From contig JAWKNI010000015.1 in assembly GCA_041391785.1 (NCBI GenBank), positions 8,398 through 72,397 of the forward strand: a stretch of DNA of 64,000 bases, read 5' to 3'. Below, piece after piece: positions 1-15,752 of this stretch; position 1 is the stretch's first letter; every line of letters begins with the position of its first letter. Origin of the DNA: Flavobacteriales bacterium (GTDB lineage: Bacteria > Bacteroidota > Bacteroidia > Flavobacteriales_F > PHOS-HE28). Below the pieces are notes generated by a model that was not told the DNA's origin, did not search any database, and was given only the letters and a program-made list of their open reading frames with translations. A program made the position numbers and the translations under genes.

Positions 1-626
1 ATGTCGTACGGATGCTCCAGCGCTGCGTTCCGATCGGTCAACGGAACGTCGTACATGCTCACCTTCAGTGTGGGTGGCGTCTGTTGCGGGCCGCCGCAAC
101 CGGCCTGGACGACGCTGAATTCGAACGACTCACGGATCGCCTTTCCGTCGGCATCGCGCGCGGGGTTCCAGTGCGGCATCTTCTCGACAACACGCACCAG
201 TCGCGCATCCAGTGCAGCATTCCCGGAGGTGCTGGTCAATGCGACAGCGGTCGCGTGGCCATCCTCGTTGAGTGTGGATCCGACCACCGGCGGCTTCAAC
301 CATCCGATACCGGGCCGGACGTGCGGAAGGATGTTGTGCTTCAGGTAGCTCACCAGGCTGTCCCGGCCTCCTGCGAACGCCGCATGTGCGATCCCCGCTT
401 CGGTCCCTGGAACGGCATCGATCACATAGGCCTTGTCCGAGAAAAAGACCATCGGATCCAACCACGGTTCCTGCACAGCGCCGCCACCGATCAGCACCAT
501 TGGGTCGAAGAGCGGGACCACGGCTGCCTGTGAGACACATCCTTCATGACCGGTCCCCGAGGTTCCGAGGATCGCACCAGCGACCAACGCGAGGGTCGCT
601 CCACCAATGAACATTGCTACTTTCAT
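1..626 (-). CDS. TonB C-terminal-like domain protein with N-terminal signal/TM segment (runs off the left edge; absent from the ORF track)
   Basis: Hand translation from ATG at 626: MKVAMFIGGATLALVAGAILG...FAGGRDSLVSYLKHNILPH...GNAALDARLVRVVEKMPHWNPARDADGKAIRESFEF. This resembles the TonB_C pattern (GG..L..YL; LD..A.RVV..MP.W.PA...GK). Confidence 0.65.
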   Translation of the reverse strand, partial: MKVAMFIGGATLALVAGAILGTSGTGHEGCVSQAAVVPLFDPMVLIGGGAVQEPWLDPMVFFSDKAYVIDAVPGTEAGIAHAAFAGGRDSLVSYLKHNILPHVRPGIGWLKPPVVGSTLNEDGHATAVALTSTSGNAALDARLVRVVEKMPHWNPARDADGKAIRESFEFSVVQAGCGGPQQTPPTLKVSMYDVPLTDRNAALEHPYD

Positions 627-677
627 GACCTTTGGATGATGGGTTTCGCCAAAGGTGAACGGCCCGGTACGTGAAGC

Positions 678-716
678 TGTTAAACAGTGTGTAAAATAGT
701 GTAAACCGAGTGTAAT
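678..716. promoter_or_regulatory. Four phased direct repeats (TGTTAAA, GTGTAAA, GTGTAAA, GTGTAAT), probable operator of the adjacent wHTH regulator
   Basis: Repeats start at 678, 689, 699 and 710 (10-11 bp period) in the AT-rich divergent intergenic region. Confidence 0.55.
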
Positions 717-755
717 TCATTCAAAAGCAAGTGGTTGAGCTGGTAGCTTCGCAGC

Positions 756-1664
756 ATGTCCTCGTGGTACGCTCCGCTACTGATGGTGCTTTTGCTCGCC
801 GCTGCTCCGTGTTCCGCGGGTACCATTGATCCACCTTCGAAGGAGGAGCAACAGGTGGAAGTGGCCATGCGCCTGATCGGTCATGAGGTCCTGCTGGCCG
901 CTGGCGACTCATCTTCCATCGTGCGCCCTGTTGAACGCGTGGGTGATCGGTACAGGGTCCGCTTCACGAACGACTTCGGGTTCGAGCCCAGCGTGATGAC
1001 CGCGACGGTGGACAGCGTCGTGCGCACCACGAAGGTCGCAACGCGCTACCTCGTTGAATTCGTTTCCTGCGACACGAACGTGGTGGTGCACAGCTGGCAG
1101 GCCGCGCTCGTTCCGGAGAATGCGATGATGCCGTGCATGGGGCGCAGCCAACCCGTGGCCTGCTACGAACTGTGGTTCACGATCCTGGAGCGGGACATGG
1201 CGGCCTTCCAGGGTGTGGCGCGCGAAGATCGAGCAGGCATCACCGTGACCCCTCTGGCCACCGTCCGCTGGTGGTGGTTGCTGATCCCCGCATTGCTCCT
1301 CATCGGTGCTGCGGTCGTGCTCGCAAGAAAACGAAGAAGGCCATCCGAAGCCAGCAACGACCCCAACGTGGTCCGCATCGGCGGGTTCCTGTTCAACACC
1401 CGGAACATGGAATTGTCCTTCAAGAACGAGCGGGTGCGCCTCACCAGCAAGGAGGCCGATCTGCTCCAGCTGCTCTCCGCCTCTCCGAACGACACGGTGG
1501 AACGCGAAACCATCCTGGCGACCGTATGGGGCGATGAAGGGGACTATGTGGGCCGCACCCTGGATGTCTTCGTATCCAAGCTGCGCAAGAAGTTGGAGGC
1601 CGATGCCAACGTGCGCATCGTGAACATCCGCGGCGTGGGCTACCGGCTCGTGCTGGGGGAGTGA
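756..1664 (+). CDS. Membrane-anchored one-component regulator: signal peptide, extracytoplasmic domain, TM helix, C-terminal OmpR/PhoB-type winged helix
   Basis: C-terminal RLTSKEADLLQLL...RETILATVWG...RTLDVFVSKLRKKL...IVNIRGVGYRL (Trans_reg_C). TM segment WWWLLIPALLLIGAAVVLA followed by RKRRR. No receiver domain. Confidence 0.85.
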   Translation: MSSWYAPLLMVLLLAAAPCSAGTIDPPSKEEQQVEVAMRLIGHEVLLAAGDSSSIVRPVERVGDRYRVRFTNDFGFEPSVMTATVDSVVRTTKVATRYLVEFVSCDTNVVVHSWQAALVPENAMMPCMGRSQPVACYELWFTILERDMAAFQGVAREDRAGITVTPLATVRWWWLLIPALLLIGAAVVLARKRRRPSEASNDPNVVRIGGFLFNTRNMELSFKNERVRLTSKEADLLQLLSASPNDTVERETILATVWGDEGDYVGRTLDVFVSKLRKKLEADANVRIVNIRGVGYRLVLGE

Positions 1665-1862
1665 AAGCACGCGGCTCCTGATCACGACCTCCTGGGGATC
1701 GCGTTGCACGGCTTTTCCAGGCACCACGGCCACGAAAGGTCGAGCAGGGATAGGGGTCTGTCCGTTGAGCTGTCGCGATCGGGCCGCGATCGAACACTAA
1801 CGAACGTTCTATTGCAGCGCGACGGTGGATGGACGCTCTTTGTATGCATAACACCACCCGCC

Positions 1863-3035
1863 ATGGACCACACGCTGCTGTCGCGCATTCGATCCATTGT
1901 TCTTCTTGTTCCCGCTGCCTTCGCTTTTGTACCGCTGCATGGACAAACGTTGACCTCCGAGTTCGTGAACGCAGGCTACTCCCTCTCGGACCTTGGGAGC
2001 ATCACCGACCTGCCAACACCTTACGGAGGGCTCACCATTCGTGCCGATGAACCGAACACCCTGTACATCGGGGGGAGCGCCAACGCCGCCAGCGGTGCCA
2101 TTTATGCGGTCCCGTTGATACGCGACGGTGCCACGGACCAGATCACCGGATTCGCCGGACCGGCGGTACTCCACTCCACCGGGCCGAACAACGACGGCGG
2201 CCTCACGTTCACGCCCAGCGGCACGCTGCTCTTCACGCAATACACACCGTTCTCACTGAATTCCATGGGGCAGATCCTGCCGGACGACACCTACGTGACC
2301 ACCGAGTTCACATCGCTGGGGGTCTCCCCATCGATCGGCAGCCACGCCTTCGTGCCCGATGGCTACCCGGGAGCAGGCGGGCTGATCGTGGCCTCGTACA
2401 ACGCGTCGATCGCCTACCGGATCCCCTTCTCAGTGGATGGTGCCGGCCTGCACACCTTCAGTGCACCCACCGCTTCCATCAATGTGAACGGCACCGCGAC
2501 CGGACCGGAGGGCATCGCCTACGTTCCACTCGGTTCGATCGCCTTTCCCGTGCCGTCCATGGTCGTGTCGGCATACGGCATGAACAAAGTGGTCGTGTTC
2601 GAGGTGGGACCCGATGGCCTTCCCAACACCGCCACGGTCCGTGACATGGTGGTGGACCTTGTTGGTGCGGAAGGCGCCTGGATCGATCCGCTCACCGGCG
2701 ACTTCCTCTTCTCCACCTTCGGCGGCAGCAACCGCGTGATCCGGGTGACCGGTTTCGAACTGCCCACCGCAGTGAAGCCCATGGGTCCGGAGGAGGTCGA
2801 CCTGTTCCAGGTATTCCCGAATCCGTCCAGCGGCAAGGTTCAGATCTCCGTTGCGCGGTCGGGCGGTGTGCTCCAACTCGAGGTCATCGATCCACAAGGC
2901 GCCACGATCCAGCGCGAAATGTTCGCCGGCAGCAGCATTCACCACCTCGACCTGAGCGACCGAGCATCTGGCCTGTACCACGTGCGTGTGCACTGCGATG
3001 GCGTGCAGCAGGTGCAGCGGGTGATGCTGGAATGA
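1863..3035 (+). CDS. Secreted protein with T9SS type A C-terminal sorting domain (beta-rich, function unknown)
   Basis: Signal peptide ending VPLHG-Q. C-terminal FQVFPNPSSGKVQI...DLSDRASGLYHVRV. Start set at ATG 1863. Confidence 0.8.
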   Translation: MDHTLLSRIRSIVLLVPAAFAFVPLHGQTLTSEFVNAGYSLSDLGSITDLPTPYGGLTIRADEPNTLYIGGSANAASGAIYAVPLIRDGATDQITGFAGPAVLHSTGPNNDGGLTFTPSGTLLFTQYTPFSLNSMGQILPDDTYVTTEFTSLGVSPSIGSHAFVPDGYPGAGGLIVASYNASIAYRIPFSVDGAGLHTFSAPTASINVNGTATGPEGIAYVPLGSIAFPVPSMVVSAYGMNKVVVFEVGPDGLPNTATVRDMVVDLVGAEGAWIDPLTGDFLFSTFGGSNRVIRVTGFELPTAVKPMGPEEVDLFQVFPNPSSGKVQISVARSGGVLQLEVIDPQGATIQREMFAGSSIHHLDLSDRASGLYHVRVHCDGVQQVQRVMLE

Positions 3036-3126
3036 CCGCGTGTTGCGTGACCGCTGACCCGGGCTGGTCCGCTCATGAACAGAACAGGGCAGGAGATCGG
3101 AAAACACCCTGCGGTGGTTCAGGCGG

Positions 3127-3680
3127 CGCGCCCGGCCTCCGGAGTGACGATCGCAGCGTTGGGTCGCAGGGTCGCCTTCTCAAGAGCAGCGCACAGAGGG
3201 CGGAGATTGGGAGGACACCCGTGACGCACGTCACTCCGGGCAAGCGAGGCTTTGCGAGCACGACCCGGAGTCTCACAAATGACAACGCCTGAATGCGCAT
3301 TTGTGAGACTCCGGATGACCGGGACCTACGCGCTGCGCGCGCCCGGCCTCCGGAGTGACGATCGCGGCTGCGGGCCGCAAGGTCGCCCGCTCGTTCCCGG
3401 CTCGAAGGCCGGGACAGCGGACAGAGGGCGGCGGTTGGGGCTCGACTCCGTGCCTCACGAGGCACGTCACTCCGGGCAAGCGAGGCTTTGCGAGCGCGAC
3501 CCGGAGTCTCACAAATGACAACGCCTGAATGCGCATTTGTGAGACTCCGGATAGCCGGGACCTACGCGCTCCGCGCGCCCGGCCTCCGGAGTGACGATCA
3601 CGGCTCGCGGCCGCACGGTCGTCGTCGATCCCGGCTCGAAGGCCGGGAGCTGTGGGACAGAGGGTGGAGGTTGGTTGACA
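3127..3680. repeat. Tandem array of CGTC-tagged REP-doublet-like nested palindromes (2 full 132-bp units plus 1 partial)
   Basis: Units at 3229-3360 and 3465-3596 are nearly identical and bounded by CGTCACTCCGG/CCGGAGTGACG. Each has a perfect 17-bp internal stem (3265-3314 in unit 1). A partial right end lies at 3127-3149. CCCGGCTCGAAGGCCGGGA follows both full units. Confidence 0.9.
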
Positions 3681-3715
3681 CCCGGCGGCGGTCCAAACCC
3701 CGAAATGATCCAGCG

Positions 3716-4201
3716 CTACCGCCACAAACTATCCAGCACCCACGCGCTTTTCCCATCATCAAAGGAGAAAGGAGATGCCGGTCATCACGCCCATCCGGCC
3801 AATGACGCATGCCTTGGCCGAAGTTGACCACGAAGAACTCCGCCTTTCCTGGGGTGAGCGTGCCGAAGATGTTGAGGTAGCGGAAGTGCTCGCCTCCGGT
3901 TTGAGCACCCGCCTCCGACAGGCGGATACGATGCTAAACGGATGCATGCTCCATGTTGGCCGGCAGCTCGATGTGCGGGAACTCATCATGCCTGCCGATG
4001 TACACTGTGTCCGGGAGCCATCCGTCGCGTGCGCGCAATGCGTTGGATGTACGCGACCACCGCGGCGCCGTATACCGCAGCCGTATCAACAGACCGTTCC
4101 GCTGAGGAACTCGGTGCAGGTACTTGTTGCGAAGCGTCATCGTGCCGTGGGCCGCACGCCGCCAACAGCAGAACGAGCAACCAAGGCCGGACGGTTCTCA
4201 T
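3716..4201 (-). CDS. Putative lipoprotein, broken by several indels
   Basis: Lipobox WLLVLLLAAC. Frames join to ...DGWLPDTVYIGRHDEFPHIELPAN...GGEHFRYLNIFGTLTPGKAEFFVVNFGQGMRHWPDGRDD...FDDGKSAWVLDSLWR*. Confidence 0.55.
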
Positions 4202-4213
4202 GACAGGACAAAC

Positions 4214-5046
4214 TCACAGATTGCAGGGCTGCAGGGTCGCCGAAACGGCAGACCGCTGCGGTGGTTTGCGGGGAAGCCCTGCGGTGGACTTACGATCCGC
4301 ACGTGCCGCATCATCGCCCCAACACCAACCGATAGCCGAGGTCGAGCGCGTCCGTTCCGAGCAACATGCCGTATCGCTCTTTCCACGCCGCCGCTGCGCA
4401 AATCGGCAGCCAAGCGTTCCAAGGTGGCGGACAGATCGCCGACCTTCCAGAAGGACGAGATCGCCGAGCGCACCTGCGATCGAGATAGGCTTCGGGTCGC
4501 CGCCAGTAGGCACACAGGAAGCCATCGGTGCAGTCGTGGCGGAACGGGGACCGGCGCTAATGTGACCGGTCCAAGCCATTGCTGGTACAGGTTCATGGGC
4601 GGCATCTGGGCCTCGTCCAAGGCGATCAACTCCGGGATATAGTCGTATTAACCAGAAACCGCGGAACGCCGATCAGGTGAGCACCACCGGGCCACGCGTC
4701 ACGCGGCGCAACTCGCGCAGACCCTTGCCCTTGTCCGACCAATGGTGTACGGTGAGCACGGCCATGGACGCATCGAACGTGCCATCCGCGAAGGGCAGCT
4801 CCTCAGCGCTGGCTCGATCACCGGCGCAGTACCCGCGCGGCGTTGCTCGGATCATCTCCAGGGAAGGCTCCACCGCCGTAACGTCCCTGTCCGCTGGCTC
4901 ATACGAGCCCGCACCGGCACCTACATTGAGCACCGCGCGCGAAGTGGTCCCAGCGCGGCATGCATCATGGCCGCGATCCGCGGGTCCGGCTTGCGCAGTT
5001 CGGCGTAGCTGATGCCGATGGTGTCGTGATCAAGCTCATCGCGCAT
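4214..5046 (-). CDS. Class I SAM-dependent methyltransferase, frameshifted (3' end uncertain, ~4214-4310)
   Basis: Joined frames give DTIGISYAELRKPDPRIAA...VLNVGAGAGSYEP...VEPSLEMI...ASAEELPFADGTFDASMAVLTVHHW...YIPELIALDEAQMP...VRSAISSFW...DLGYRLV. Confidence 0.8.
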
Positions 5047-5327
5047 CGAAGCTGACTTTCCAAGGTGTCCAGGTGTCGCGGATGGAATCGCCGGAGGCTT
5101 GGGAGACACCCTTCGGTGGTCTAAGTGCAGCGGACCGACCCGCGGGGTTGGGAGGACAATTCTGCCGTGGTCGAAAACATAGCCAACCACGGCGGGCCAG
5201 TCACAGGCTGTCGAACACCGTTCAGGCAGGACCCCAACAAGGGGAGCTTGGAAAGTCACAGGTGGCCCGCCGCCCGCTTTCCCAAGCCCGCCCGCGCGGA
5301 ACACTTGCGACAATGAGGGGGCAGTCA

Positions 5328-7154
5328 TCAACGCCTAGGACTAGATAACCTAGGCTTGTACGGCTCTAACCTAAGACGCTGACCACGCACGTACAACTCT
5401 CGTTCACCGTGTAACAGAGATGCTGCAGAGTGGATATTCACAAACGTGACAAAGGCAAACCGTGTCACGAAATGTGGCTGAGCCTTGGGTAAATCAATTT
5501 TCGCGACCTCGCCAAATTCCTCAATCTGAGCTCGCAACTCCTCTTGGGTTATGTCATGGGGCAACCCAAAACCACAACTTTAGATGGGTCAAGTTCCGCG
5601 GCCTCCAACGCCTGCGTTCCTTGATTGGGAACTTGAATTCGAAATCGTGGAATTTGACCCTTTGGTTTTCCAGATTTTTTAGCCAATTGGGTCGCCTGAG
5701 GATTGGTATATTTCAAGAAGAATGCCACTGTTCCTCAGGCTAGTAACCTCACGATCATAGGTATCTCGGTCTTCCGTGTTGATTGTGCTGATAAATATCC
5801 TGAGGGCAAGCGCACGATCATGCATTCCTGCAATAATGATTCTTTGCTGTACCTTTGGTAAGCGTGTGTGAACTAAAGACATCCAGCCAAGCCAGTTGTT
5901 GAGGAGAAAATACCGACCGTTGATAGAGGGTCACTGTAAACGAAGTCGAATCTGTTTCCAAATCCGGCTTTTGCAAGTCGCTTTCTTGCATCAACTGAAA
6001 TATCCTTTTCATCCCCTCCCCTTAACTCGCGCATGTACCTCGCTTCCCGCAATGTTCTCGCCACTAGGGCATTTCTCGATTCATGCGCACCTTCCAAACG
6101 TTTAAGGAGATCAATGGTTAGCGTAGTCAGCAACGCACCAGGGCTCTTAATCTCCATCCTATCATCAAAGATAAAACAGTCAATGCCAACGTGAGTACTG
6201 TAATCCCTGTGTGCAATAGCATTTACCAAAGTCTCGCGGCATGCCCACTCTGGGAAAAGGTACCTATGCTCAAACCTAGTATCCACTCCGAGATCTGTGC
6301 GGTAGGCCAGCGATGGCCTCAGGGCCTCCCCATGACCGCGTGAGCAATTCAACGACGTTCCTTGAATCAGTTCATCTGAAACAACGTTATAATCAAGGCC
6401 AGCCTTTTAGGTGTTTCCACGAACACGCAGGATTCTTACTTGGCTCCGAGGATGCCATCGATGTATTGCTTTGCCAAATACCAAAACCGCAGCACGACGC
6501 AAGCGCAGTCCCCCGGCGCCATACTCTGCTAGTCCAATTTGCTGGAGGTACTTCTCGGGGGTAATGCCAAAGGTGATATCGACGCTCAGCTCCTCACCAG
6601 AGTCAGGTCAAGATCAGAAACTGAAGCGTCATCGATGAATTCTGAGTCATAGGCGCGACCTGCTCTCCTGCCGCTCAAACACAATTGAACCAACGCTTTC
6701 GGGCACCGTTTGCAAATCGGAACGACGAACGCACCTCCCATCCGGCAACTGGAAAATCTGAGTCGTCCCCTTGCCCACGGAAAAATAGAGCACCGTGTAC
6801 CCATCGACTACTAATCGATTGACATGCAGCAAGGTAGTTGAGACTCCGCATACACGTGAGTACTCACGGCTTTCAACATTACTTCAATATCATCATCGCC
6901 ATGTGGGATGCCGGTAACCGTCCCATCATCTTCCACCCCGATCACTAAAGCCACCGCCATCTGCATTAGGCGAACGCAACGAGAGCCTCACCAATATCCC
7001 GACAAATGGCTGTGACTCTTCGTGGGGTTTTACCTTCAGGCCTGCCTCCTCTAGTGCGCTCTTAAATTCCTGAAAATGGCTCTCTCGCCAAGCGCAATTG
7101 TATCCTGACTCTTTCAGTGAGCACAAGAACATCATCGACATCGTTGGACTTCAT
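5328..7154 (-). CDS. Schlafen/AlbA_2 domain + HATPase_c_4 (RecG-C-like) + wHTH-like region + C-terminal RRM; about ten or more indels
   Basis: Reconstructed from ATG 7154: ESHFQEFKSA...DIGEALVAFANADGG..VIGVEDDGTVTG (AlbA_2); FPEWACRETLVNAIAHRDYS...IFDDRMEIKSPG...SRNALVARTLR...YMRELGEGMKRIF (HATPase_c_4); KVVVLGLPHDITQEELRAQIEEFGEVAKIDL...RFAFVTF (RRM RNP2/RNP1). Confidence 0.75.
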
Positions 7155-7339
7155 GTCAGCCTCTGATTTCTAATTGACGCCAAAGTAGTCAAAGCCGCTT
7201 TGCTCCGAGTACAAGAACGTCTCGGGTCAGTTCATCCAGGTCACCACGCAGAGATATTCAGCCTATGGAACAGCCAGCGAAAATAAACTGGCTACGACGT
7301 CACCGGTCGCTTTACCGCTGAATCGGTGCCCAAGAAATC

Positions 7340-7472
7340 CTACCCGTGAGGTACATGCCCGCTTCCCCGTAGACCTTGCCGCTGCCACGGCCGCGAGCCG
7401 GGCCTCGCAGTGACAGAAATCTGGATCCTTCAGGTCCTTGATAGTAGACCGCTCGCCGGTGCTCTTCATTTC
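7340..7472 (-). repeat. Diverged non-coding copy of the carB 3' end with a 34-bp hairpin insertion
   Basis: Minus strand reads EMKSTGE-(A)VY-IKDLKDPDF [TGTCACTGCGAGGCCCGGCTCGCGGCCGTGGCAG, 7382-7415] xKVYGEAGMYLT..TAG, compared with carB EMKSTGEAIYFIKDLKDPFFRQV-GE-SMYLSR*. Confidence 0.85.
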
Positions 7473-7481
7473 GTGTTTGCG

Positions 7482-8087
7482 TCAACACTGCAGAACTAAG
7501 GACCCTCTGTTCGCTTCATACGTATTGCTGTTGCTTGGATAATCCAGTATCGAACTACCCTCCAGAACTCTCTGCAAGAAGCCCACTAACGTGACAACAG
7601 AAACTGCTCGGAACGCATGAAGATTTGTAGGAGTGGCGGAACGAGGGGATTCTGAGCGCCTTGACAACACCAATGGCCATATTCAGCATACCCTCCTGTT
7701 CATTCCTCCCGTTCTCAGTGGCAACATCACCAAACGATACTTCAGTGGAGCTCGAACGAGGTTCTTCGTCTTAGCGTCGTATTCGAATGAGAACGACCTT
7801 GACACAAGGTCGGGACAATTTACGCGACATCCAGGCCTGTCTTCTTTCTCAAAACAGCCTCAAAATCAATCAAGGCACTTCGCTGATTCGGTGAACTCGA
7901 CCTTGAGCAACAGTCTGAAGCGCCAGGTAGCTTCCGGTCAATATGCAACCGTCAGTAGATAGTCTCCGATAGTGCTGAGCCATTGCTCAACTGGCTTACC
8001 GCAATAAGCACAGAAGTTGAGTTCAGGGTTTGTCCGATCGAGCTTATGGCAATGCCAGCAAGGCGATGACGAAGCAGGTGTGGACAT
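7482..8087 (-). CDS. Small AT-richer cargo ORF with N-terminal Zn-ribbon (CxxC-x12-CxxC), frameshifted; extent uncertain
   Basis: ATG 8087 gives MSTPASSSPCWHCHKLDRTNPELNFCAYCGKPVEQW..., open to 7938. Further open stretches in other frames continue to ~7482. Confidence 0.4.
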
Positions 8088-8091
8088 GCCC

Positions 8092-8188
8092 TTACCTGCT
8101 CAAGTAAATTCCGGGCTCTCCCCACACACCTGCCTCTGCCACGCCTGCTTCAAGAGCAAGCAGGCTCGCAGTGACAGAACGGATCCTG
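8092..8188 (-). repeat. Second diverged copy of the carB 3' end with a 41-bp hairpin insertion
   Basis: Minus strand CAGGATCCGTTC (DPF) [TGTCACTGCGAGCCTGCTTGCTCTTGAAGCAGGCGTGGCAG, 8136-8176] AGGCAGGTGTGTGGGGAGAGC..GGAATTTACTTGAGCAGGTAA reads RQVCGES-GIYLSR*. Confidence 0.75.
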
Positions 8189-8194
8189 GCTTCA

Positions 8195-10998
<2,804 letters not shown>

Positions 10999-11019
10999 GT
11001 CCGGTGGTTGACCGGGACG

Positions 11020-11027
11020 CAAAGCTA
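11020..11027 (-). promoter_or_regulatory. Bacteroidota -7 box (TAGCTTTG) for carB
   Basis: Matches TAnnTTTG about 20 nt upstream of the ATG. Confidence 0.65.
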
Positions 11028-11111
11028 ACCGGGAGCCCATGCCGATGCGGGGATCGTGGATAAGGAGGCGTGATCGTGGATAATGCGGGTCCAACTCAGA
11101 AGCATGGGGAA

Positions 11112-11190
11112 CACAGAGGCGCCGGACCCTCCATCTTCGGACTTTGTTCATTCTTTGCATTCCTTGTGAACTCCGTGCCTCTGTGGTGAA
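11112..11190. repeat. Short inverted repeat of the CACAGAGGC / GCCTCTGTG type
   Basis: CACAGAGGC (11112-11120) pairs exactly with GCCTCTGTG (11177-11185), within CTCCGTGCCTCTGTGGTGAA. Confidence 0.45.
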
Positions 11191-11197
11191 TTCCCCC

Positions 11198-12013
11198 ATG
11201 GTCCGATACTTCACCCACGGCGTTACGCTTGCCTACCGCACGTACGGCGATGGCCCCGCGCCGATGCTCGCCTTCCATGGGTTCGGGCGCACCGGTGCCG
11301 ACTTCGCCGTGCTGGAACAGGCGCTGGGCGGGCGTTGCACCCTGTATGCCTTCGACCTGCACTTCCACGGGCAAAGCCCCGGCTATCCCGATCGGGCCTT
11401 CAAGCCGTTCACGCCGGATGAACTAGCGGGCTTCTTCACGGCCTTCATGGATGCGTTGGGGGCGGCCCAGGTGCTCGTGCTGGGCTACAGCCTTGGCGGC
11501 AGGATGGTGTTGAGCCTGTTGGAGCAGGTGCCTGATCGCATTGAACGAGCCTTCCTGGTGGCCCCGGACGGGTTGCGCACGCGTCCATGGTACCGGGCAT
11601 TGGCGGCTTCAGCTGCGGGCCGCCGGTTGTACAAGCGTTTCGTGGAGCATCCCAACACGGTGCACACTTCCCTGAACGCCTTGCGATCCCTGCGCCTGAT
11701 GAATGAGCGGATGCACCGCTTCCTGGTGGGGCAGACGGATAGCAGGGCGAAGCGCCTGTTGTTGCACGACGTCTGGCTGAGCTATCGGCTCATCGAACCG
11801 GACCTGGCACGGGTGGGGGCGAATGCCCGGACCCACGAAGTGCCCATCCACCTCATCTTCGGGGCGCATGACCGGGTGATCCGCAGTGCGTTGGGGAAAG
11901 GGTTACGGTCGCATGCCCCGGAATGGGTCACCCAGGAGGACCTTCCGTTCGGCCATGCCCTGCTGGTGCCGGAGCTGGGGGTGAAGCTTGCGGAATACCT
12001 GAAGCCGCAATGA
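11198..12013 (+). CDS. Alpha/beta fold hydrolase
   Basis: LAFHGFG oxyanion motif, GYSLGG nucleophile elbow, C-terminal GHAL. Confidence 0.9.
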   Translation: MVRYFTHGVTLAYRTYGDGPAPMLAFHGFGRTGADFAVLEQALGGRCTLYAFDLHFHGQSPGYPDRAFKPFTPDELAGFFTAFMDALGAAQVLVLGYSLGGRMVLSLLEQVPDRIERAFLVAPDGLRTRPWYRALAASAAGRRLYKRFVEHPNTVHTSLNALRSLRLMNERMHRFLVGQTDSRAKRLLLHDVWLSYRLIEPDLARVGANARTHEVPIHLIFGAHDRVIRSALGKGLRSHAPEWVTQEDLPFGHALLVPELGVKLAEYLKPQ

Positions 12014-12041
12014 AAAAGGGCCGCCCAACAGGACAGCCCTT
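12013..12041 (-). terminator. Intrinsic terminator after rpmH, between convergent genes
   Basis: Minus strand AAGGGCTGTCC-TGTT-GGGCGGCCCTTTTT. Confidence 0.65.
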
Positions 12042-12061
12042 GACAGTTCGCAGGTACAGGA

Positions 12062-12217
12062 CTATTTGTGCGAAGGCTCGTCGCTTGTGGTGAGCTTGCG
12101 GCGGCCGCGTGCACGACGGGCGGAGAGGATGCTCCGGCCAGCGGCGGTGCTCATCCGCTTGCGGAAACCGTGCTTGTTGGTGCGCTTGCGCTTGCTGGGC
12201 TGGTAGGTGCGTTTCAT
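12062..12217 (-). CDS. rpmH: 50S ribosomal protein L34 (absent from the ORF track, 51 aa)
   Basis: [51 protein letters not shown]. Confidence 0.97.
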
Positions 12218-12267
12218 GGCCGTTCGTCCGTCTTAGGACCGGTGCCCATTTCCGGGCATCGGGGCGG

Positions 12268-12275
12268 CAAATGTA
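12268..12275 (-). promoter_or_regulatory. -7 box (TACATTTG) for rpmH
   Basis: TAnnTTTG consensus ~50 nt upstream of the ATG. Confidence 0.65.
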
Positions 12276-12309
12276 GGGCTTTTCCGGATCCCGCCAAATC
12301 GCGGATGGC

Positions 12310-13047
12310 CTATCGGGGGGCGAATCGCAACCGTTCGAGCCCGTAGGCCTGCACGCTGCCGTCCTCATGCTCCACGATCAACCGCCCGGATGCATCCACA
12401 TCCATGGGGCGCACCACGGCCGGGGCCCCGTCCAGCGCGACATCCGCCCAGCGGCCGCGTGCCCACAGGCGCTCGGCATAGGCGCCGGCAACATCAGTGT
12501 TGTTACGGCCCCACTGGTGCTCGAACCGCAGGCAGAGCTCCTCCAATAGCGTATTCCGGTCCAACGTTCGTCCTAGTTCCATGCACAGGCTGGTCGCAAC
12601 AAGCCCTTCCTCGAACCCGGAGCTGTTCACGTTCAGGCCGATGCCGATGATCGCCGAACGGACCATGTCGCCCAGCACCTCGGTACGGATGAGGATGCCG
12701 GCCACCTTGCGGCGCCCCACCAGGATGTCGTTCGGCCATTTGATGCGCACGTCGGGCAGGTATGTGGCCACGACATCGTACACGGCCAACGCAGCGCACC
12801 GCACCAGCATGAACTGGTCCTCGGCACGGAGTGTTTCGGGACGCAGGACGATGCTGAACGTGAGGTCCAGCCCCGGTGCGGAGTGCCATGTGCGGCCCCG
12901 CTGGCCACGTCCTGCCGTCTGTTCATGGGCAAGCACCACGGCACCATGATCCAAATGACCTGCGGTGATCATCTCGGCGGCGATGGTGTTGGTGCTTTCC
13001 ACCCGTGCCAGTTCGATGAGCTGCCTGCCGAATACCTTGGTGCGCAA
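12310..13047 (-). CDS. birA: Biotin-[acetyl-CoA-carboxylase] ligase (no HTH)
   Basis: VESTN, AHEQTAGRGQRGRTW, IKWPNDILVGRRKVAGIL, IGIGLNVN. TTG start inferred. Confidence 0.92.
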   Translation of the reverse strand: MRTKVFGRQLIELARVESTNTIAAEMITAGHLDHGAVVLAHEQTAGRGQRGRTWHSAPGLDLTFSIVLRPETLRAEDQFMLVRCAALAVYDVVATYLPDVRIKWPNDILVGRRKVAGILIRTEVLGDMVRSAIIGIGLNVNSSGFEEGLVATSLCMELGRTLDRNTLLEELCLRFEHQWGRNNTDVAGAYAERLWARGRWADVALDGAPAVVRPMDVDASGRLIVEHEDGSVQAYGLERLRFAPR

Positions 13048-13093
13048 CGGAGGAGGGTTGAGGTCGGGAGCGTAGGCAGCGTAGGTAACTTCG

Positions 13094-13101
13094 TACCTTT
13101 G
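13094..13101 (+). promoter_or_regulatory. -7 box (TACCTTTG) for the rsfS-ftsH operon
   Basis: TAnnTTTG consensus 21 nt upstream of the rsfS ATG. Confidence 0.7.
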
Positions 13102-13122
13102 AGCGAACGCAAGATAGACCGG

Positions 13123-13497
13123 ATGAAGAAGAAACTGGGCGCCGAGAGCGCCCGCCTGGTGGATGCCGTTGTGGAGGGCATCCAGGAAGTGAAGGGCAAG
13201 GACATCGTCCATCTGGACCTTCGCGGAGTGCCGAATACGGTCACGGACCATCTGATCATCTGCCATGGCGACTCCGATACCCAGGTGGCGTCGATCACGG
13301 CGTCGGTCGAGCGGTTCACCCTGGAGAAAGTGGGGGAGAAGCCCTGGGCAACGGAAGGACAACGGAATGGTGAGTGGGTGTTGTTGGATTACGTGAACGT
13401 GGTGGTGCACATCTTCCACCGGGACAAGCGCAGCTATTATGCGCTGGAGGACCTGTGGGGGGATGGTGACAGCAAGCGGTATGAGAACGTGGCGTGA
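13123..13497 (+). CDS. rsfS: Ribosome silencing factor
   Basis: IQEVKGKDIVHLDLR, IICHGDSDTQV, WVLLDYVNVVVHIF, YALEDLWGD. Confidence 0.95.
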   Translation: MKKKLGAESARLVDAVVEGIQEVKGKDIVHLDLRGVPNTVTDHLIICHGDSDTQVASITASVERFTLEKVGEKPWATEGQRNGEWVLLDYVNVVVHIFHRDKRSYYALEDLWGDGDSKRYENVA

Positions 13498-13517
13498 ACG
13501 GTTGAACTGAGGATATC

Positions 13518-15530
13518 GTGGAGAACAACGACAAGAAGGACCGGAATGAGAAGGACCGCCCGAAGCGGTCGTTCAACTTCTACTGGATCTACGGGATCAT
13601 CATCCTGGTGATCCTCTCGATCAATCTCTTCCAATACAGCGGAGGGATGACGCGCATCGACACCACCGAGTACCGCAAGATGCTCGAGGCCGGTGACGTG
13701 GAAAAGATCCTGGTGGTGAACGACCAGATGGTGAAGGTCTTCATCAAGAAGGACAGCCTGGGCAAGGAGCCGCACAAGACGAAGATCAAGAGCTCGCCCA
13801 TTTCCGGCGAGAACATTTATGGGCCGCACTACGTCTTCAATGTGGGTTCATCGAACCTGCAGAAGGACCGTTTGGTGAAGGAGGCCGAACAGCACAATGT
13901 CGAGTACGATTACGAGATCCAGGACAACTGGGGGCGTGAGATCCTGAACTGGGTGCTCTTCTTCGGTGTGATGATCGCCATCTGGATCTTCGTGATGCGA
14001 CGGATCGGCGGCGGCGGTGGTCCGGGTGGCCAGATCTTCAACATCGGCAAGAGCCGGGCACAGGTCTTCGAAGGGGGAAAGAGCACCAATGTCAATTTCA
14101 ACGACGTGGCAGGGCTGGACGAGGCCAAAGAGGAACTGCAGGAGATCGTGGACTTCCTGAAGAACCCGAAGAAATACACCGATCTCGGGGCGAAGATCCC
14201 GAAGGGCGCGCTGTTGGTGGGGCCTCCGGGCACGGGCAAGACCCTGCTTGCGAAGGCAGTGGCGGGGGAGGCCAACGTACCGTTCTTCTCGCTCAGTGGT
14301 TCCGACTTTGTGGAGATGTTCGTGGGCGTGGGGGCAAGCCGTGTGCGCGACCTGTTCAAGCAGGCCAAGGAGAAGGCACCCAGCATCATCTTCATCGACG
14401 AGATCGATGCCATCGGGCGCGCTCGCGGCCGCAGCGTGAGCATGGGCGCCAACGACGAGCGCGAGAATACGCTGAACCAGCTGCTGACGGAGATGGACGG
14501 CTTCGGCACCAACTCCGGGGTGATCCTCATCGGGGCCACCAACCGTGCCGATGTGCTGGACCGTGCGTTGATGCGCGCAGGCCGTTTCGACCGGCAGATC
14601 TTCGTGGACATGCCCGATCTGAACGAGCGGGAGGAGATCCTGAAGGTGCACCTCAAACCGTTGAAGCTGGACATCACGGTGGACGTGTCGTTCCTGGCCC
14701 GCCAGACACCCGGTTTCAGCGGTGCGGACCTTGCCAACATCTGCAACGAAGCGGCCCTGATCGCCGCACGGAAGAAGAAGAAGTCCGTGGACAAACAGGA
14801 CTTCCTGGATGCCGTGGACCGCGTGATCGGCGGGTTGGAGAAGAAGAACAAGATCATCACGCTGGGTGAGAAGCAGGCCATCGCGTACCATGAGGCAGGG
14901 CACGCCACCGTGAGCTGGTTGGTGGAGCACGCCAGCCCCCTGGTGAAGGTGACGATCGTACCGCGCGGACGTTCGCTCGGTGCGGCATGGTACCTGCCCG
15001 ATGAGCGCCACCTGACCACCACCGAGCAGATGCTGGACGAGATCTGCGCCGCCCTGGGCGGAAGGGCCGCGGAGGATGTGATGTACGGCAAGGTGAGCAC
15101 CGGCGCGCTGAGCGACCTGGAGAAAGTGACCAAGCAGGCCTATGCCATGGTCACCATGTACGGGTTGAACGAGAAGCTCGGCAACATCAGCTACTACGAC
15201 AGTTCAGGCCAGAACGAATACTCGTTCGGCAAACCATACAGCGAAAGCACGGCCCGCACCATCGACGAGGAGGTGAGCAAGATCGTGGAAGGTCAATACC
15301 AGCGGGCCAAGCGCCTGCTGATCGAGAACAAGGACAAGCTGACCGCACTCGCCACCCAGCTGTTGGAGAAGGAGGTGATCTTCAAGGAGGACCTGCTGAA
15401 GATCTTCGGTGAGCGGCCGTTCGAGAAGCCTACTCCTGTTCCACCTTCCAACGGCCACCGGAAGTCCGGGCCATCCGATGTGCCTGATACCGTGCCCGGT
15501 GGCGAGGGGCGGGATCCTGCCGCGTCGTGA
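13518..15530 (+). CDS. ftsH: ATP-dependent zinc metalloprotease FtsH
   Basis: Two TM segments, GPPGTGKT Walker A, IIFIDEID Walker B, AYHEAGH zinc motif. Confidence 0.98.
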
Positions 15531-15545
15531 TCGATCTTGCAGCCC

Positions 15546-15752
15546 ATGAGGAACTGGTCGCTTGTGCTCAGTACCGGTTCGCCGCATGAGGCGGAGCTCA
15601 TCAAAGGCCTGCTGGAGAACCACGGCATCAGCGCAGTGGTGATGGATGAAGGGTCCTCGGCCTACCCGCACCTCGGCGAGAAGCGGATCTATGTGGACCA
15701 GGATGAACTGGTGCGTGCAAAGCATCTGGTGAGCAAACACAGGGACCAGTGA
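15546..15752 (+). CDS. DUF2007-like small protein
   Basis: EAELIKGLLENHGISAVV...IYV..DELVRAK pattern; operonic position. Confidence 0.7.
   Translation: MRNWSLVLSTGSPHEAELIKGLLENHGISAVVMDEGSSAYPHLGEKRIYVDQDELVRAKHLVSKHRDQ

What the first reader, a model, noticed from the sequence alone, without database searches (positions are those of the whole stretch)
5328..7154. Schlafen/AlbA_2-HATPase-wHTH protein apparently fused to a C-terminal RRM
Seen after manual frame-joining: AlbA_2 motifs, HATPase_c_4 motifs, then a continuous linker (PKGQIPRFRIQVP...LDPSK) into an RRM with RNP2 (VVVLGLP) and RNP1 (RFAFVTF). Known: AlbA_2/Schlafen domains include tRNA/RNA nucleases and are common in prokaryotic conflict systems, and RRMs bind single-stranded RNA. 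Inference: a single-gene RNA-sensing or RNA-targeting defence candidate, an architecture I do not know to be characterised. The fusion depends on correcting about ten or more indels.
Basis: partly seen in the sequence, partly recalled or inferred. Interest (0 to 1): 0.7.

Follow-up and report, generated by a model that had tools for sequence, protein, structure and literature searches.

The report
Schlafen nuclease-ATPase fused to an RRM
The broken-looking stretch is one real, horizontally acquired gene for a Schlafen-type RNA nuclease with an ATPase, a DNA/RNA-binding winged helix and a tethered RNA-recognition motif: an undescribed variant of a recently characterised bacterial anti-phage nuclease family, not a new kind of system.

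Summary
Window 7154..5328 (minus strand) is one gene, split into about 10 frame pieces by 18 small indels. The same indel density runs through the essential neighbour carB and the intergenic DNA, so this is assembly noise, not decay. Short-read contigs of the same locus give an intact 608-aa protein (P0001): SLFN_AlbA_2 nuclease, GHKL ATPase (PF13749), winged HTH, a disordered linker and a canonical RRM.

The fusion is real and common. 86 of the 120 best homologues are about 600 aa, and in 20 of 20 loci with an RRM match it lies inside the gene, never as a separate ORF. These homologues span more than 10 phyla. The nuclease and ATPase residues are invariant in 120/120, and the RNP1/RNP2 aromatics are kept in about 80-95%.

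The nuclease-ATPase core is the 'Schlatpase'/pSlfn2 module, shown in 2025-26 preprints to be an ATP-gated, sensor-licensed anti-phage tRNase. Neither survey mentions an RRM fusion.

The gene is accessory here: GC is about 51% against 60%, and it is absent from 40 relatives. Defence-island enrichment was not found. There is no conserved partner gene, and few neighbours match defence models.

Most likely it is an ATP-dependent oligomeric RNase whose tethered RRM senses or recruits single-stranded nucleic acid. A defence role is plausible but unproven. It is a new variant of a known kind, of moderate interest.

The parts
5328..7154 (-). Whole gene: Schlafen nuclease, GHKL ATPase, wHTH, linker, RRM. 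608 aa when read from the intact allele P0001; 18 assembly indels in the window copy.
6711..7085 (-). SLFN_AlbA_2 nuclease domain (residues 24-148). Holds E24-x4-E29-x-K31, the AFAN box (F60, N62) and the acidic pair E73/D74.
   Evidence: Pfam 4.3e-14, 53.5 bits against a cut-off of 25.3. The residues are invariant in 120/120, except D74 at 117/120. Foldseek hits to human SLFN11 and SLFN12.
5919..6257 (-). GHKL-type ATPase (residues about 300-412; Pfam HATPase_c_4 covers 324-409). Holds the N-box E307/N311 and the lid G378-E-G380.
   Evidence: Pfam 5.7e-22, 78 bits against a cut-off of 26. Invariant residues. They correspond to E314/N318 of RzAgo.
5631..5864 (-). Winged helix-turn-helix (residues about 431-508) with a conserved basic wing (K498, R503, F504).
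   Evidence: AF2 model helices 433-474 and strands 478-480 and 504-506. Whole-chain Foldseek match to 3lmm/DIP2311. Conservation.
5586..5630 (-). Disordered, length-variable linker (residues about 509-523).
   Evidence: pLDDT below 50 at 512-521. 16% mean pairwise identity and variable length.
5361..5585 (-). Canonical RRM (residues 524-598). RNP2 is VVVFGL (526-531); RNP1 is TRFAFVTF (564-571).
   Evidence: Pfam RRM_1 5.4e-9, 36.2 bits against a cut-off of 20.7. [quoted passage not shown] Foldseek target-normalised TM about 0.8 to solved RRMs. PDB sequence hits to TDP-43 and hnRNP A1 RRMs.
7500..8087 (-). Context, not part of the protein: an upstream co-oriented gene with a zinc ribbon and a Hypoth_Ymh domain carrying an R-x4-H motif (HEPN-like). 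It is absent from the contig variant L003.
   Evidence: Pfam PF09509 2.8e-13. PADLOC PD-Lambda-3_B 2.4e-10 and Aga_HEPN 7.5e-10..
4306..5037 (-). Context: a downstream co-oriented class I SAM methyltransferase gene (243 aa in L003). It is not a conserved partner in other genomes.

Best explanation
The stretch encodes one intact accessory protein of 608 aa. It looks broken only because the assembly carries about one indel per 100 bp.

Shown:
- It joins a Schlafen/AlbA_2 metal-dependent endonuclease domain to a GHKL ATPase (the 'Schlatpase' supradomain, class pSlfn2), then a winged HTH, then a flexible 15-45-residue tether to a canonical RRM.
- All known catalytic residues of the nuclease and the ATPase are invariant across the subfamily.
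- The RRM keeps its RNA-stacking aromatics in most members but evolves much faster than the core (28% against 62-68% pairwise identity).
- The gene is foreign to its host, an uncultured Flavobacteriales bacterium.

Inferred from the two characterised relatives, RzAgo and RorSlfn5:
- ATP binding to the GHKL domain drives dimer or tetramer formation. This assembles two Schlafen domains into an active, bilobed RNase that cuts tRNA (or other RNA) and arrests growth.
- The C-terminal module licenses or directs this activity.
- Here the licensing or targeting input would be single-stranded nucleic acid, RNA or ssDNA from an invader, captured by the tethered RRM, possibly together with the wHTH wing.

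The biological role is most likely conflict or abortive-infection defence, but this is the weakest link.

My confidence differs by layer: about 0.95 for gene identity and architecture, about 0.7 for RNase activity, and about 0.45 for the RRM as sensor and for a defence role. The figure given is for the statement as a whole.
For: - One gene, noise only.
- Domains above Pfam cut-offs.
- PADLOC matches the Schlafen+GHKL part of the SLFN-pAgo model (1.8e-25, model positions 48-438).
- Invariant E24, E29, K31, F60, N62, E73, E307, N311, G378 and G380 in 120/120 homologues; RNP1 and RNP2 aromatics kept in 67-83 of 86.
- AF2 model with pLDDT 84.6, a well-formed RRM and a disordered tether.
- Fold hits to 3lmm, SLFN11, SLFN12 and many RRMs.
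- Mechanism of relatives: ATP-driven tetramerisation, the Schlafen dimer as a tRNase, and sensor licensing; an Ig-like sensor with tRNA cleavage and abortive infection, and SLFN11 activated by ssDNA.
- Conserved core with a variable C-terminal domain.
- RRM always in-frame, never split.
- HGT and accessory status: GC dip, and 0 of 40 relatives carry it.
- A HEPN-like Ymh gene lies next door, and nuclease genes sit at the same carB-downstream site in congeners.
Against: - No experiment exists on any RRM-bearing member.
- Defence-island association was not seen. About 5 of 138 neighbours within 5.5 kb of 18 RRM-type loci hit PADLOC models at 1e-10. RRM-less sisters look similarly sparse. Annotated contexts are mostly housekeeping.
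- The core is unusually conserved for an arms-race gene (50-60% identity across phyla).
- The RRM was lost at least 7 times in the tree, so it is dispensable for the core activity.
- In the window's own protein RNP2 lacks the usual aromatic and Asn (VVVFGL).
- In Taboada et al. only two of the seven pSlfn genes tested protected E. coli: a DUF262 fusion and an Ig-like fusion.
Confidence: 0.5

Rival explanations
1. Same enzyme, but the RRM is a substrate clamp rather than a sensor. It raises affinity for tRNA, rRNA or mRNA, taking the role of the basic N-lobe of mammalian Schlafens. Activation would come from something else: ATP level, the wHTH, or a protein cue.
For: Canonical RNP surfaces are kept. 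Basic or RGG-like tails follow the RRM in several members. Bacterial Schlafen domains lack the N-lobe and need an added basic surface. The wHTH-then-RRM order recalls the La module, which grips RNA 3' ends.
Against: A substrate clamp for conserved tRNA would be expected to be conserved, yet the RRM is the fastest-evolving domain (28% identity). RRM-less sister proteins keep all catalytic residues, so the substrate can be bound without it.
Confidence: 0.22
2. A non-immune cellular function: a stress- or ATP-responsive RNase, or a post-transcriptional regulator acting on the host's own RNAs, spread by HGT as a stand-alone gene.
For: Neighbours are mostly housekeeping genes and few match defence models. 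The core is highly conserved across phyla. 30% of bacterial Schlafen genes lie outside defence contexts. Known bacterial RRM proteins are global RNA regulators.
Against: The distribution is very patchy: 0 of 40 relatives, and 187 relatives found by a two-peptide-pattern scan of one genome for each of 185,579 species, with atypical GC. Some copies sit in mobile or conflict contexts: after smpB next to a primase and helicase in Paenibacillus, among restriction and toxin-antitoxin genes in a Chloroflexota genome, and next to a HEPN-like gene here. Every characterised relative is an immune effector.
Confidence: 0.22
3. Mainly a transcription factor, as in the old COG2865 label 'predicted transcriptional regulator', in which the Schlafen and GHKL parts are regulatory and not catalytic.
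For: A C-terminal wHTH with a conserved basic wing. Database names such as 'helix-turn-helix domain-containing protein'.
Against: Every nuclease and ATPase catalytic residue is invariant in 120/120. The homologous module is an active tRNase and ATPase in RzAgo. An RRM is not a feature of DNA-binding regulators.
Confidence: 0.04
4. A decayed pseudogene, or a chance frame-joining artefact in which the RRM is a separate or spurious ORF.
For: About 10 frame pieces in the window.
Against: An intact allele lies on three independent short-read contigs collinear with the window. The same indel rate is seen in the essential carB. 86 homologues of about 600 aa exist, with the RRM in-frame wherever it was detected (20 of 20 loci).
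Confidence: 0.02

Closest known systems
Stand-alone 'Schlatpase'-HTH proteins / class pSlfn2 (Slfn-HisKinase-HTH) (Kuzmenko et al. 2026, bioRxiv 10.64898/2026.05.29.728809; Taboada et al. 2025, bioRxiv 10.1101/2025.07.24.666596). Structural representative: DIP2311, PDB 3lmm.
   Same: The same N-terminal about 505 residues: SLFN_AlbA_2 with E-x4-E-x-K and the (S)AFAN box, the PF13749 GHKL ATPase with an E...N N-box, and a C-terminal wHTH. RRM-less members are 54-59% identical to this protein and are nested inside its tree.
   Different: This protein adds a tethered canonical RRM after the wHTH. Neither survey lists that composition: 'RRM' occurs 0 times in either main text, and 0 times in the held supplements of Taboada, the only supplements searched. 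No pSlfn2 member has a demonstrated phenotype in the parts I read.
SLFN-pAgo (RzAgo of Runella zeae)
   Same: A homologous Schlafen+GHKL module (PADLOC pAgo model hit at 1.8e-25 over model positions 48-438). Shared catalytic residues. It provides the mechanistic template: ATP-driven tetramer, Schlafen dimer as the nuclease, tRNA cleavage, and licensing by a nucleic-acid-sensing C-terminal part.
   Different: There is no PAZ/MID/PIWI core here. The putative nucleic-acid reader is a wHTH plus an RRM of about 170 residues, not a guide-loaded Argonaute, so sequence-specific guide-based recognition is not possible.
RorSlfn5 (Schlafen fused to an Ig-like sensor), Raoultella ornithinolytica
   Same: A single-gene system with an N-terminal Schlafen tRNase and a variable C-terminal sensor; abortive infection by tRNA anticodon-arm cleavage.
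   Different: Its sensor binds a phage protein (the T5 tail assembly chaperone). Here the appended domain is a nucleic-acid binder.
Human SLFN11 / SLFN13 and SAMD9/9L
   Same: The Schlafen nuclease fold and catalytic triad (Foldseek hits 7zep and 7zel). tRNA-targeting antiviral logic. SLFN11 is reported to be activated by ssDNA binding to an appended domain.
   Different: The mammalian proteins carry both nuclease lobes in one chain and a C-terminal helicase. They have no GHKL ATPase, no wHTH and no RRM.
La module (La motif wHTH + RRM1) of eukaryotic La protein
   Same: A winged helix followed directly by an RRM. Foldseek aligns 177-193 columns to La N-terminal domains bound to UUU-3'OH RNA.
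   Different: No Pfam La-motif match. Rmsd is about 16 Å, so the relative orientation differs. Here the two domains are joined by a disordered linker. This is an architectural analogy only.

Membership tests
Schlatpase / pSlfn2 (Schlafen nuclease + GHKL ATPase + HTH) | SLFN_AlbA_2 (PF04326) above the gathering score | tested here: met
   53.5 bits against a cut-off of 25.3, residues 24-148 of P0001
Schlatpase / pSlfn2 (Schlafen nuclease + GHKL ATPase + HTH) | PF13749 (HATPase_c_4) GHKL domain above the gathering score | tested here: met
   78 bits against a cut-off of 26, residues 324-409
Schlatpase / pSlfn2 (Schlafen nuclease + GHKL ATPase + HTH) | Nuclease motif E-x4-(D/E)-x-K, a third acidic residue, and the SAFAN box | tested here: met
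   E24, E29, K31, F60, N62 and E73 in 120/120; D74 in 117/120. The 3D position of E73/D74 at the metal site was not checked.
Schlatpase / pSlfn2 (Schlafen nuclease + GHKL ATPase + HTH) | GHKL Mg-ATP residues (E314/N318 in RzAgo) and a glycine-rich lid | tested here: met
   E307, N311, G378 and G380 invariant in 120/120 (reference residues)
Schlatpase / pSlfn2 (Schlafen nuclease + GHKL ATPase + HTH) | C-terminal helix-turn-helix | tested here: met
   Predicted wHTH at 431-508. Full-length fold match to 3lmm at 2.9e-23.
Schlatpase / pSlfn2 (Schlafen nuclease + GHKL ATPase + HTH) | ATP-driven oligomerisation and tRNA cleavage | not testable with these tools
   Needs biochemistry. Shown only for RzAgo and RorSlfn5.
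Anti-phage defence system (functional class) | Enrichment next to known defence genes | tested here: inconclusive
   About 5 of 138 neighbours (18 RRM-type loci, within 5.5 kb) hit PADLOC models at 1e-10, and the RRM-less sisters were similarly sparse. There is no conserved partner. This was a crude HMM-only test with home-made ORF calls. A few loci do sit in mobile or conflict contexts.
Anti-phage defence system (functional class) | Protection against phage in a challenge assay | not testable with these tools
   No RRM-bearing member has been tested in the literature I could search.
RRM (PF00076) RNA-binding domains | Pfam RRM_1 above the gathering score | tested here: met
   36.2 bits against a cut-off of 20.7, residues 526-594. 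33.6 bits on the raw window ORF 5328-5564.
RRM (PF00076) RNA-binding domains | RNP1 and RNP2 with stacking aromatics | tested here: met
   In the family, RNP1 positions 3, 5 and 8 are F/Y in 80, 81 and 83 of 86, and RNP2 position 2 is F/Y in 67 of 86. In the window protein RNP1 is intact (RFAFVTF) but RNP2 is degenerate (VVVFGL).
RRM (PF00076) RNA-binding domains | [quoted passage not shown] | tested here: met
   AF2 elements E525-531, H537-547, E550-554, E565-571, H574-582, E595-598. Foldseek target-normalised TM 0.75-0.82 and rmsd 2.3-3 Å to solved RRMs.
RRM (PF00076) RNA-binding domains | Binding of single-stranded RNA or DNA | not testable with these tools
   Needs EMSA or CLIP.
La module (LaM + RRM1) | La motif (PF05383) signature | tested here: not met
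   No La-motif hit in the Pfam scan at E up to 0.1. Only the domain order and a loose Foldseek alignment are shared.
SLFN-pAgo | PAZ-MID-PIWI core after the Schlatpase | tested here: not met
   The protein ends at residue 608 with wHTH and RRM. The PADLOC hit covers only model positions 48-438 of 1121.

The most novel reading that the evidence does not exclude
The tethered RRM, perhaps acting with the wHTH as a La-like clamp, is a true immune sensor. It would detect phage single-stranded RNA or ssDNA replication intermediates and so switch on an ATP-assembled Schlafen tRNase. That would be the first canonical, eukaryote-type RRM used as an infection sensor in a prokaryotic defence protein. It would also be a bacterial counterpart of ssDNA-activated human SLFN11.
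Probability: 0.22. Interest if true: 0.7.

Novelty: new variant of a known kind. Interest (0 to 1): 0.45.

Why it matters
Bacterial Schlafen nucleases have only just been shown to be anti-phage tRNases whose specificity lies in the appended sensor domain, and most of those sensors have unknown triggers.

This RRM-bearing subfamily is sizeable: 86 of the top 120 clusters at 90% identity are about 600 aa (an RRM was confirmed directly in a subset), they span more than 10 phyla, and all catalytic residues are intact. It would offer a Schlafen whose input is probably a nucleic acid bound by the best-understood RNA-binding fold. That makes the trigger experimentally tractable with RNP1 point mutants, oligonucleotide activation and CLIP. 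It also gives a direct comparison with ssDNA-activated human SLFN11.

Canonical RRMs fused to enzymes are little studied in bacteria.

If the subfamily turns out not to be immune, it becomes a test case for the roughly 30% of bacterial Schlafen genes that lie outside defence islands.

For genome annotation, the practical lesson is that this locus is an intact gene hidden by long-read indel noise.

Tried and rejected
1. The search for related loci with P0001 alone found nothing in genome contigs. The alignment-based scan worked.
2. The search for homologous proteins restricted to residues 470-608 returned only 4 proteins, because the word index cannot follow the divergent RRM.
3. The search of protein representatives with a wHTH+RRM profile (A3) was swamped by eukaryotic multi-RRM proteins, so it could not be used to count the subfamily.
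5. Neighbour clustering over 80 loci found no conserved partner.
6. The PADLOC scans of neighbours gave few hits.
7. The plasmid and phage collections hold only distant (25-31% identity) RRM-less Schlatpases.
8. My 'fraction in long stop-free frames' index of assembly noise was uninformative at this GC content.
9. Readings considered and rejected: a pseudogene, a programmed frameshift, and a separate RRM ORF; La-module membership; and a functional link to the downstream methyltransferase or to carB, since these are not conserved neighbours beyond 3 of 80 loci.
Full report
**1. What is in the sequence.**
- On the minus strand, an ATG at 7154 and a TGA at 5328-5330 bound 1827 nt. In the window these read as about 10 overlapping ORF pieces in all three frames.
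- Pfam on the raw pieces already finds RRM_1 (3.7e-8; 5328-5564), HATPase_c_4 (4.4e-12; 5873-6352) and a weak SLFN_AlbA_2 match (6811-6966).
- A hand-joined 615-aa reading retrieved P0001, an intact 608-aa protein, 93% identical to my imperfect join, with PF04326, PF13749 and PF00076.
- P0001 is encoded on three short-read Logan contigs (L003-L005, runs SRR28338157-9). These contigs are collinear with the window, apart from the first ~134 nt of L003 (section 6).
- The base-by-base alignment shows 18 one- or two-base indels inside the gene. The same density, about 1 per 100 bp, continues through the downstream methyltransferase gene and the intergenic DNA.
- The last 418 codons of the essential carB next door are split over at least 9 frame segments.
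- The closest named carB relatives are uncultured Flavobacteriales MAGs, several from long-read activated-sludge assemblies. This fits residual long-read indel noise.
- Conclusion: one real, intact gene.

**2. Anatomy.**
- Pfam on P0001 gives SLFN_AlbA_2 at 24-148 (53.5 bits, cut-off 25.3), HATPase_c_4 at 324-409 (78 bits, cut-off 26) and RRM_1 at 526-594 (36.2 bits, cut-off 20.7).
- The AlphaFold2 model, built on a 36-sequence alignment, has mean pLDDT 84.6. [quoted passage not shown]
- Foldseek against the PDB returns, in order: DIP2311/3lmm, an uncharacterised protein of the same core architecture (2.9e-23); La N-terminal domains (a wHTH followed by an RRM); many single RRMs (target-normalised TM about 0.8); and human SLFN11 and SLFN12.
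- The best PDB sequence hits are RRMs of TDP-43 and hnRNP A1, which bind single-stranded RNA or DNA.

**3. The fusion is a family trait.**
- Of the 120 best homologue clusters, 86 are about 590-700 aa, and most carry a precomputed RRM_1 hit. 34 are about 505-540 aa and lack the RRM.
- Named hosts include Longimicrobium, Tumebacillus flagellatus, Paenibacillus, Microcoleus, Anaerolineae/Chloroflexota, Verrucomicrobiota, Nitrospirota, Acidobacteriota, Clostridia and Fidelibacterota.
- An HMM of the RRM was scanned over the last 400 nt of the gene and the 2.5 kb downstream in 79 loci. It found the RRM only inside the gene, in frame, in 20 loci. No RRM-less locus had a separate or remnant RRM ORF.
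- On a maximum-likelihood tree of the core (residues 1-505), RRM-bearing proteins lie on both sides of the midpoint root. RRM-less forms are nested at least 7 times, including one 20-member clade. The RRM is therefore ancestral to this tight subfamily and has been lost repeatedly. Some of the short forms may be truncated gene calls.

**4. Conservation.**
- In all 120 homologues E24, E29 and K31 (E-x4-E-x-K), F60 and N62 (AFAN box), E73, E307 and N311 (GHKL N-box) and G378 and G380 are invariant. D74 is kept in 117/120.
- RNP1 positions 3, 5 and 8 are F/Y in 80, 81 and 83 of 86. RNP2 position 2 is F/Y in 67 of 86. The window protein belongs to the minority with V there.
- Mean pairwise identity among 36 RRM-bearing members is: Schlafen 62%, middle 67%, GHKL 68%, wHTH 54%, linker 16%, RRM 28%. 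The picture is a strongly constrained enzymatic core with a fast-evolving tethered C-terminal domain.
- Several members add basic or RGG-like tails, and one (P0043) has two RRMs.

**5. What is known.**
- Kuzmenko et al. (2026 preprint) named the Schlafen+PF13749 pair the 'Schlatpase' supradomain. They count 60,692 prokaryotic proteins, more than 90% with a C-terminal HTH, followed by TPR and Ig-like fusions.
- In SLFN-pAgo (RzAgo) they showed that ATP binding to the GHKL domain drives tetramerisation, that two Schlafen domains together rebuild the bilobed mammalian nuclease, and that target recognition by the Argonaute part licenses tRNA cleavage and abortive infection.
- Taboada et al. (2025 preprint) classified 5,930 bacterial Schlafens into 55 architectures. 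Slfn-HisKinase-HTH is pSlfn2, with 1,137 members. They found 69.6% of pSlfn genes within 10 kb of a defence gene, and showed that an Ig-like sensor fusion is a phage-triggered tRNase.
- PADLOC places our protein on the Schlafen+GHKL part of its SLFN-pAgo model (1.8e-25).
- 'RRM' or 'RNA recognition' does not occur in either main text or in the held supplements of Taboada. Broader literature searches did not find the fusion either.
- Public databases hold it only as 'ATP-binding protein', 'RecG' or 'RRM domain-containing protein'.

**6. Context.**
- The gene is accessory. GC falls to 0.51 at 6-8 kb against about 0.60 elsewhere. None of 24 same-genus and 16 same-class genomes has a homologue at 1e-20.
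- The DNA downstream of carB is not syntenic among congeners. There it holds other accessory genes: a YhcG/DUF1016 nuclease in one and a GmrSD_N fragment in another.
- In the window, a zinc-ribbon gene with a Hypoth_Ymh domain and an R-x4-H motif lies between carB and our gene. It matches PADLOC PD-Lambda-3_B and Aga_HEPN models at about 1e-10. It is flanked by diverged copies of the carB terminator element, and contig L003 lacks it.
- Across 80 homologous loci there is no conserved neighbour.
- Four annotated contexts are mixed: housekeeping in Tumebacillus and Anaerolineae; after smpB, beside a helicase and a primase, in Paenibacillus; and inside a carA-REase-TA-carB string in a Chloroflexota genome.
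- Only about 5 of 138 neighbours of RRM-type loci hit PADLOC models at 1e-10. The RRM-less sisters looked similarly sparse, with one retron.
- The plasmid and phage collections hold only distant RRM-less relatives.
- Defence-island enrichment is therefore not shown for this subfamily. The test was crude: HMM hits on my own ORF calls.

**7. Mechanism.**
- Shown: the architecture, the intact catalytic sites, the canonical but variable tethered RRM, and the patchy, HGT-like distribution.
- Inferred by homology: ATP-dependent oligomerisation assembles an active Schlafen RNase that cuts tRNA or other RNA.
- Inferred from the anatomy: the RRM captures single-stranded nucleic acid and either licenses the nuclease (a sensor) or delivers it to substrate (a clamp). 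Its high variability and repeated loss favour an accessory sensor or specificity role over an essential substrate-binding role.
- The wHTH, which is conserved and has a basic wing, belongs to the core machine shared with the RRM-less forms.
- Weakest link: that the outcome is anti-phage abortive infection rather than a cellular stress or regulatory function.

**8. Verdict.**
- This is a new, undescribed variant (Schlatpase-wHTH-RRM) of a known and recently characterised kind. It is not categorically new.
- Interest is moderate. It gives a tractable nucleic-acid-reading Schlafen, but there is no evidence yet that the RRM senses infection, and no defence-island signal.

Noticed in passing
window 7500-8087 (minus strand): A co-oriented gene between carB and the Schlafen gene: an N-terminal zinc ribbon (CWHC...CAYC) and a Hypoth_Ymh/TIGR02391 domain with an R-x4-H motif (ALRNPLVH). 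Pfam PF09509 at 2.8e-13; PADLOC PD-Lambda-3_B and Aga_HEPN at about 1e-10. It is probably a HEPN-like RNase. The contig variant L003 lacks it.
   Followed up: partly
window 8118-8187 and 7370-7434; L003 1-191: The hairpin-bearing element just after the carB stop is duplicated (about 79% identity) upstream of the Schlafen gene. A remnant of the carB C-terminus (MKSTGE..IKDLKDP) precedes the second copy. In L003 a carB 3' end only about 73-80% identical to the window's is joined directly to the second copy. This could be a population variant, a recombination product or a k-mer assembly jump.
   Followed up: partly
G009, G012 and G016 (loci L095-L097) against window 1-8190: The 12 kb downstream of carB share no synteny among same-genus genomes, so this is a variable accessory hotspot. 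G012 carries a second carB-3' remnant about 6 kb downstream of the real end, next to a YhcG/DUF1016 nuclease gene. G016 has a GmrSD_N fragment.
   Followed up: partly
window 5256-5323; L097 8230-8289 and 11729-11792: A roughly 60-nt element immediately after the Schlafen stop codon recurs twice (81-85% identity) in the carB-downstream region of congener G012. It may be a cassette-boundary repeat.
   Followed up: no
window 3126-3680: About 2.5 tandem copies of a roughly 236-nt unit (94% identity between the two 163-nt cores), with an internal 22-nt inverted repeat. Related copies occur in congener G009 (L095 6657-7137 and 9129-9286).
   Followed up: no
whole window, e.g. carB 8195-9450: The assembly carries about one small indel per 100 bp, and carB's last 418 codons fall in at least 9 frame segments. 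Every ORF-based annotation of this genome will be fragmented.
   Followed up: yes
L089 (Chloroflexota BJ8), L060 (Flavobacterium MAG17) and the window: In three unrelated genomes the Schlafen-family gene sits directly downstream of carB in the same orientation. In L089 carA and carB are also separated by a restriction-endonuclease-like gene and a DUF2283/DUF4258 pair. The recurrent carB adjacency is unexplained.
   Followed up: no
L087 (Paenibacillus sp. FSL R10-2771), 8800-15631: The homologue lies 1.2 kb after smpB, in a gap large enough for ssrA (a classic island integration site). A DEAD/ResIII helicase and an AEP-type primase gene follow it.
   Followed up: no
P0043 (698 aa), P0112 (709 aa): P0043 carries a second tandem RRM after the first. 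P0112 is similarly long, but its extra sequence was not inspected.
   Followed up: no
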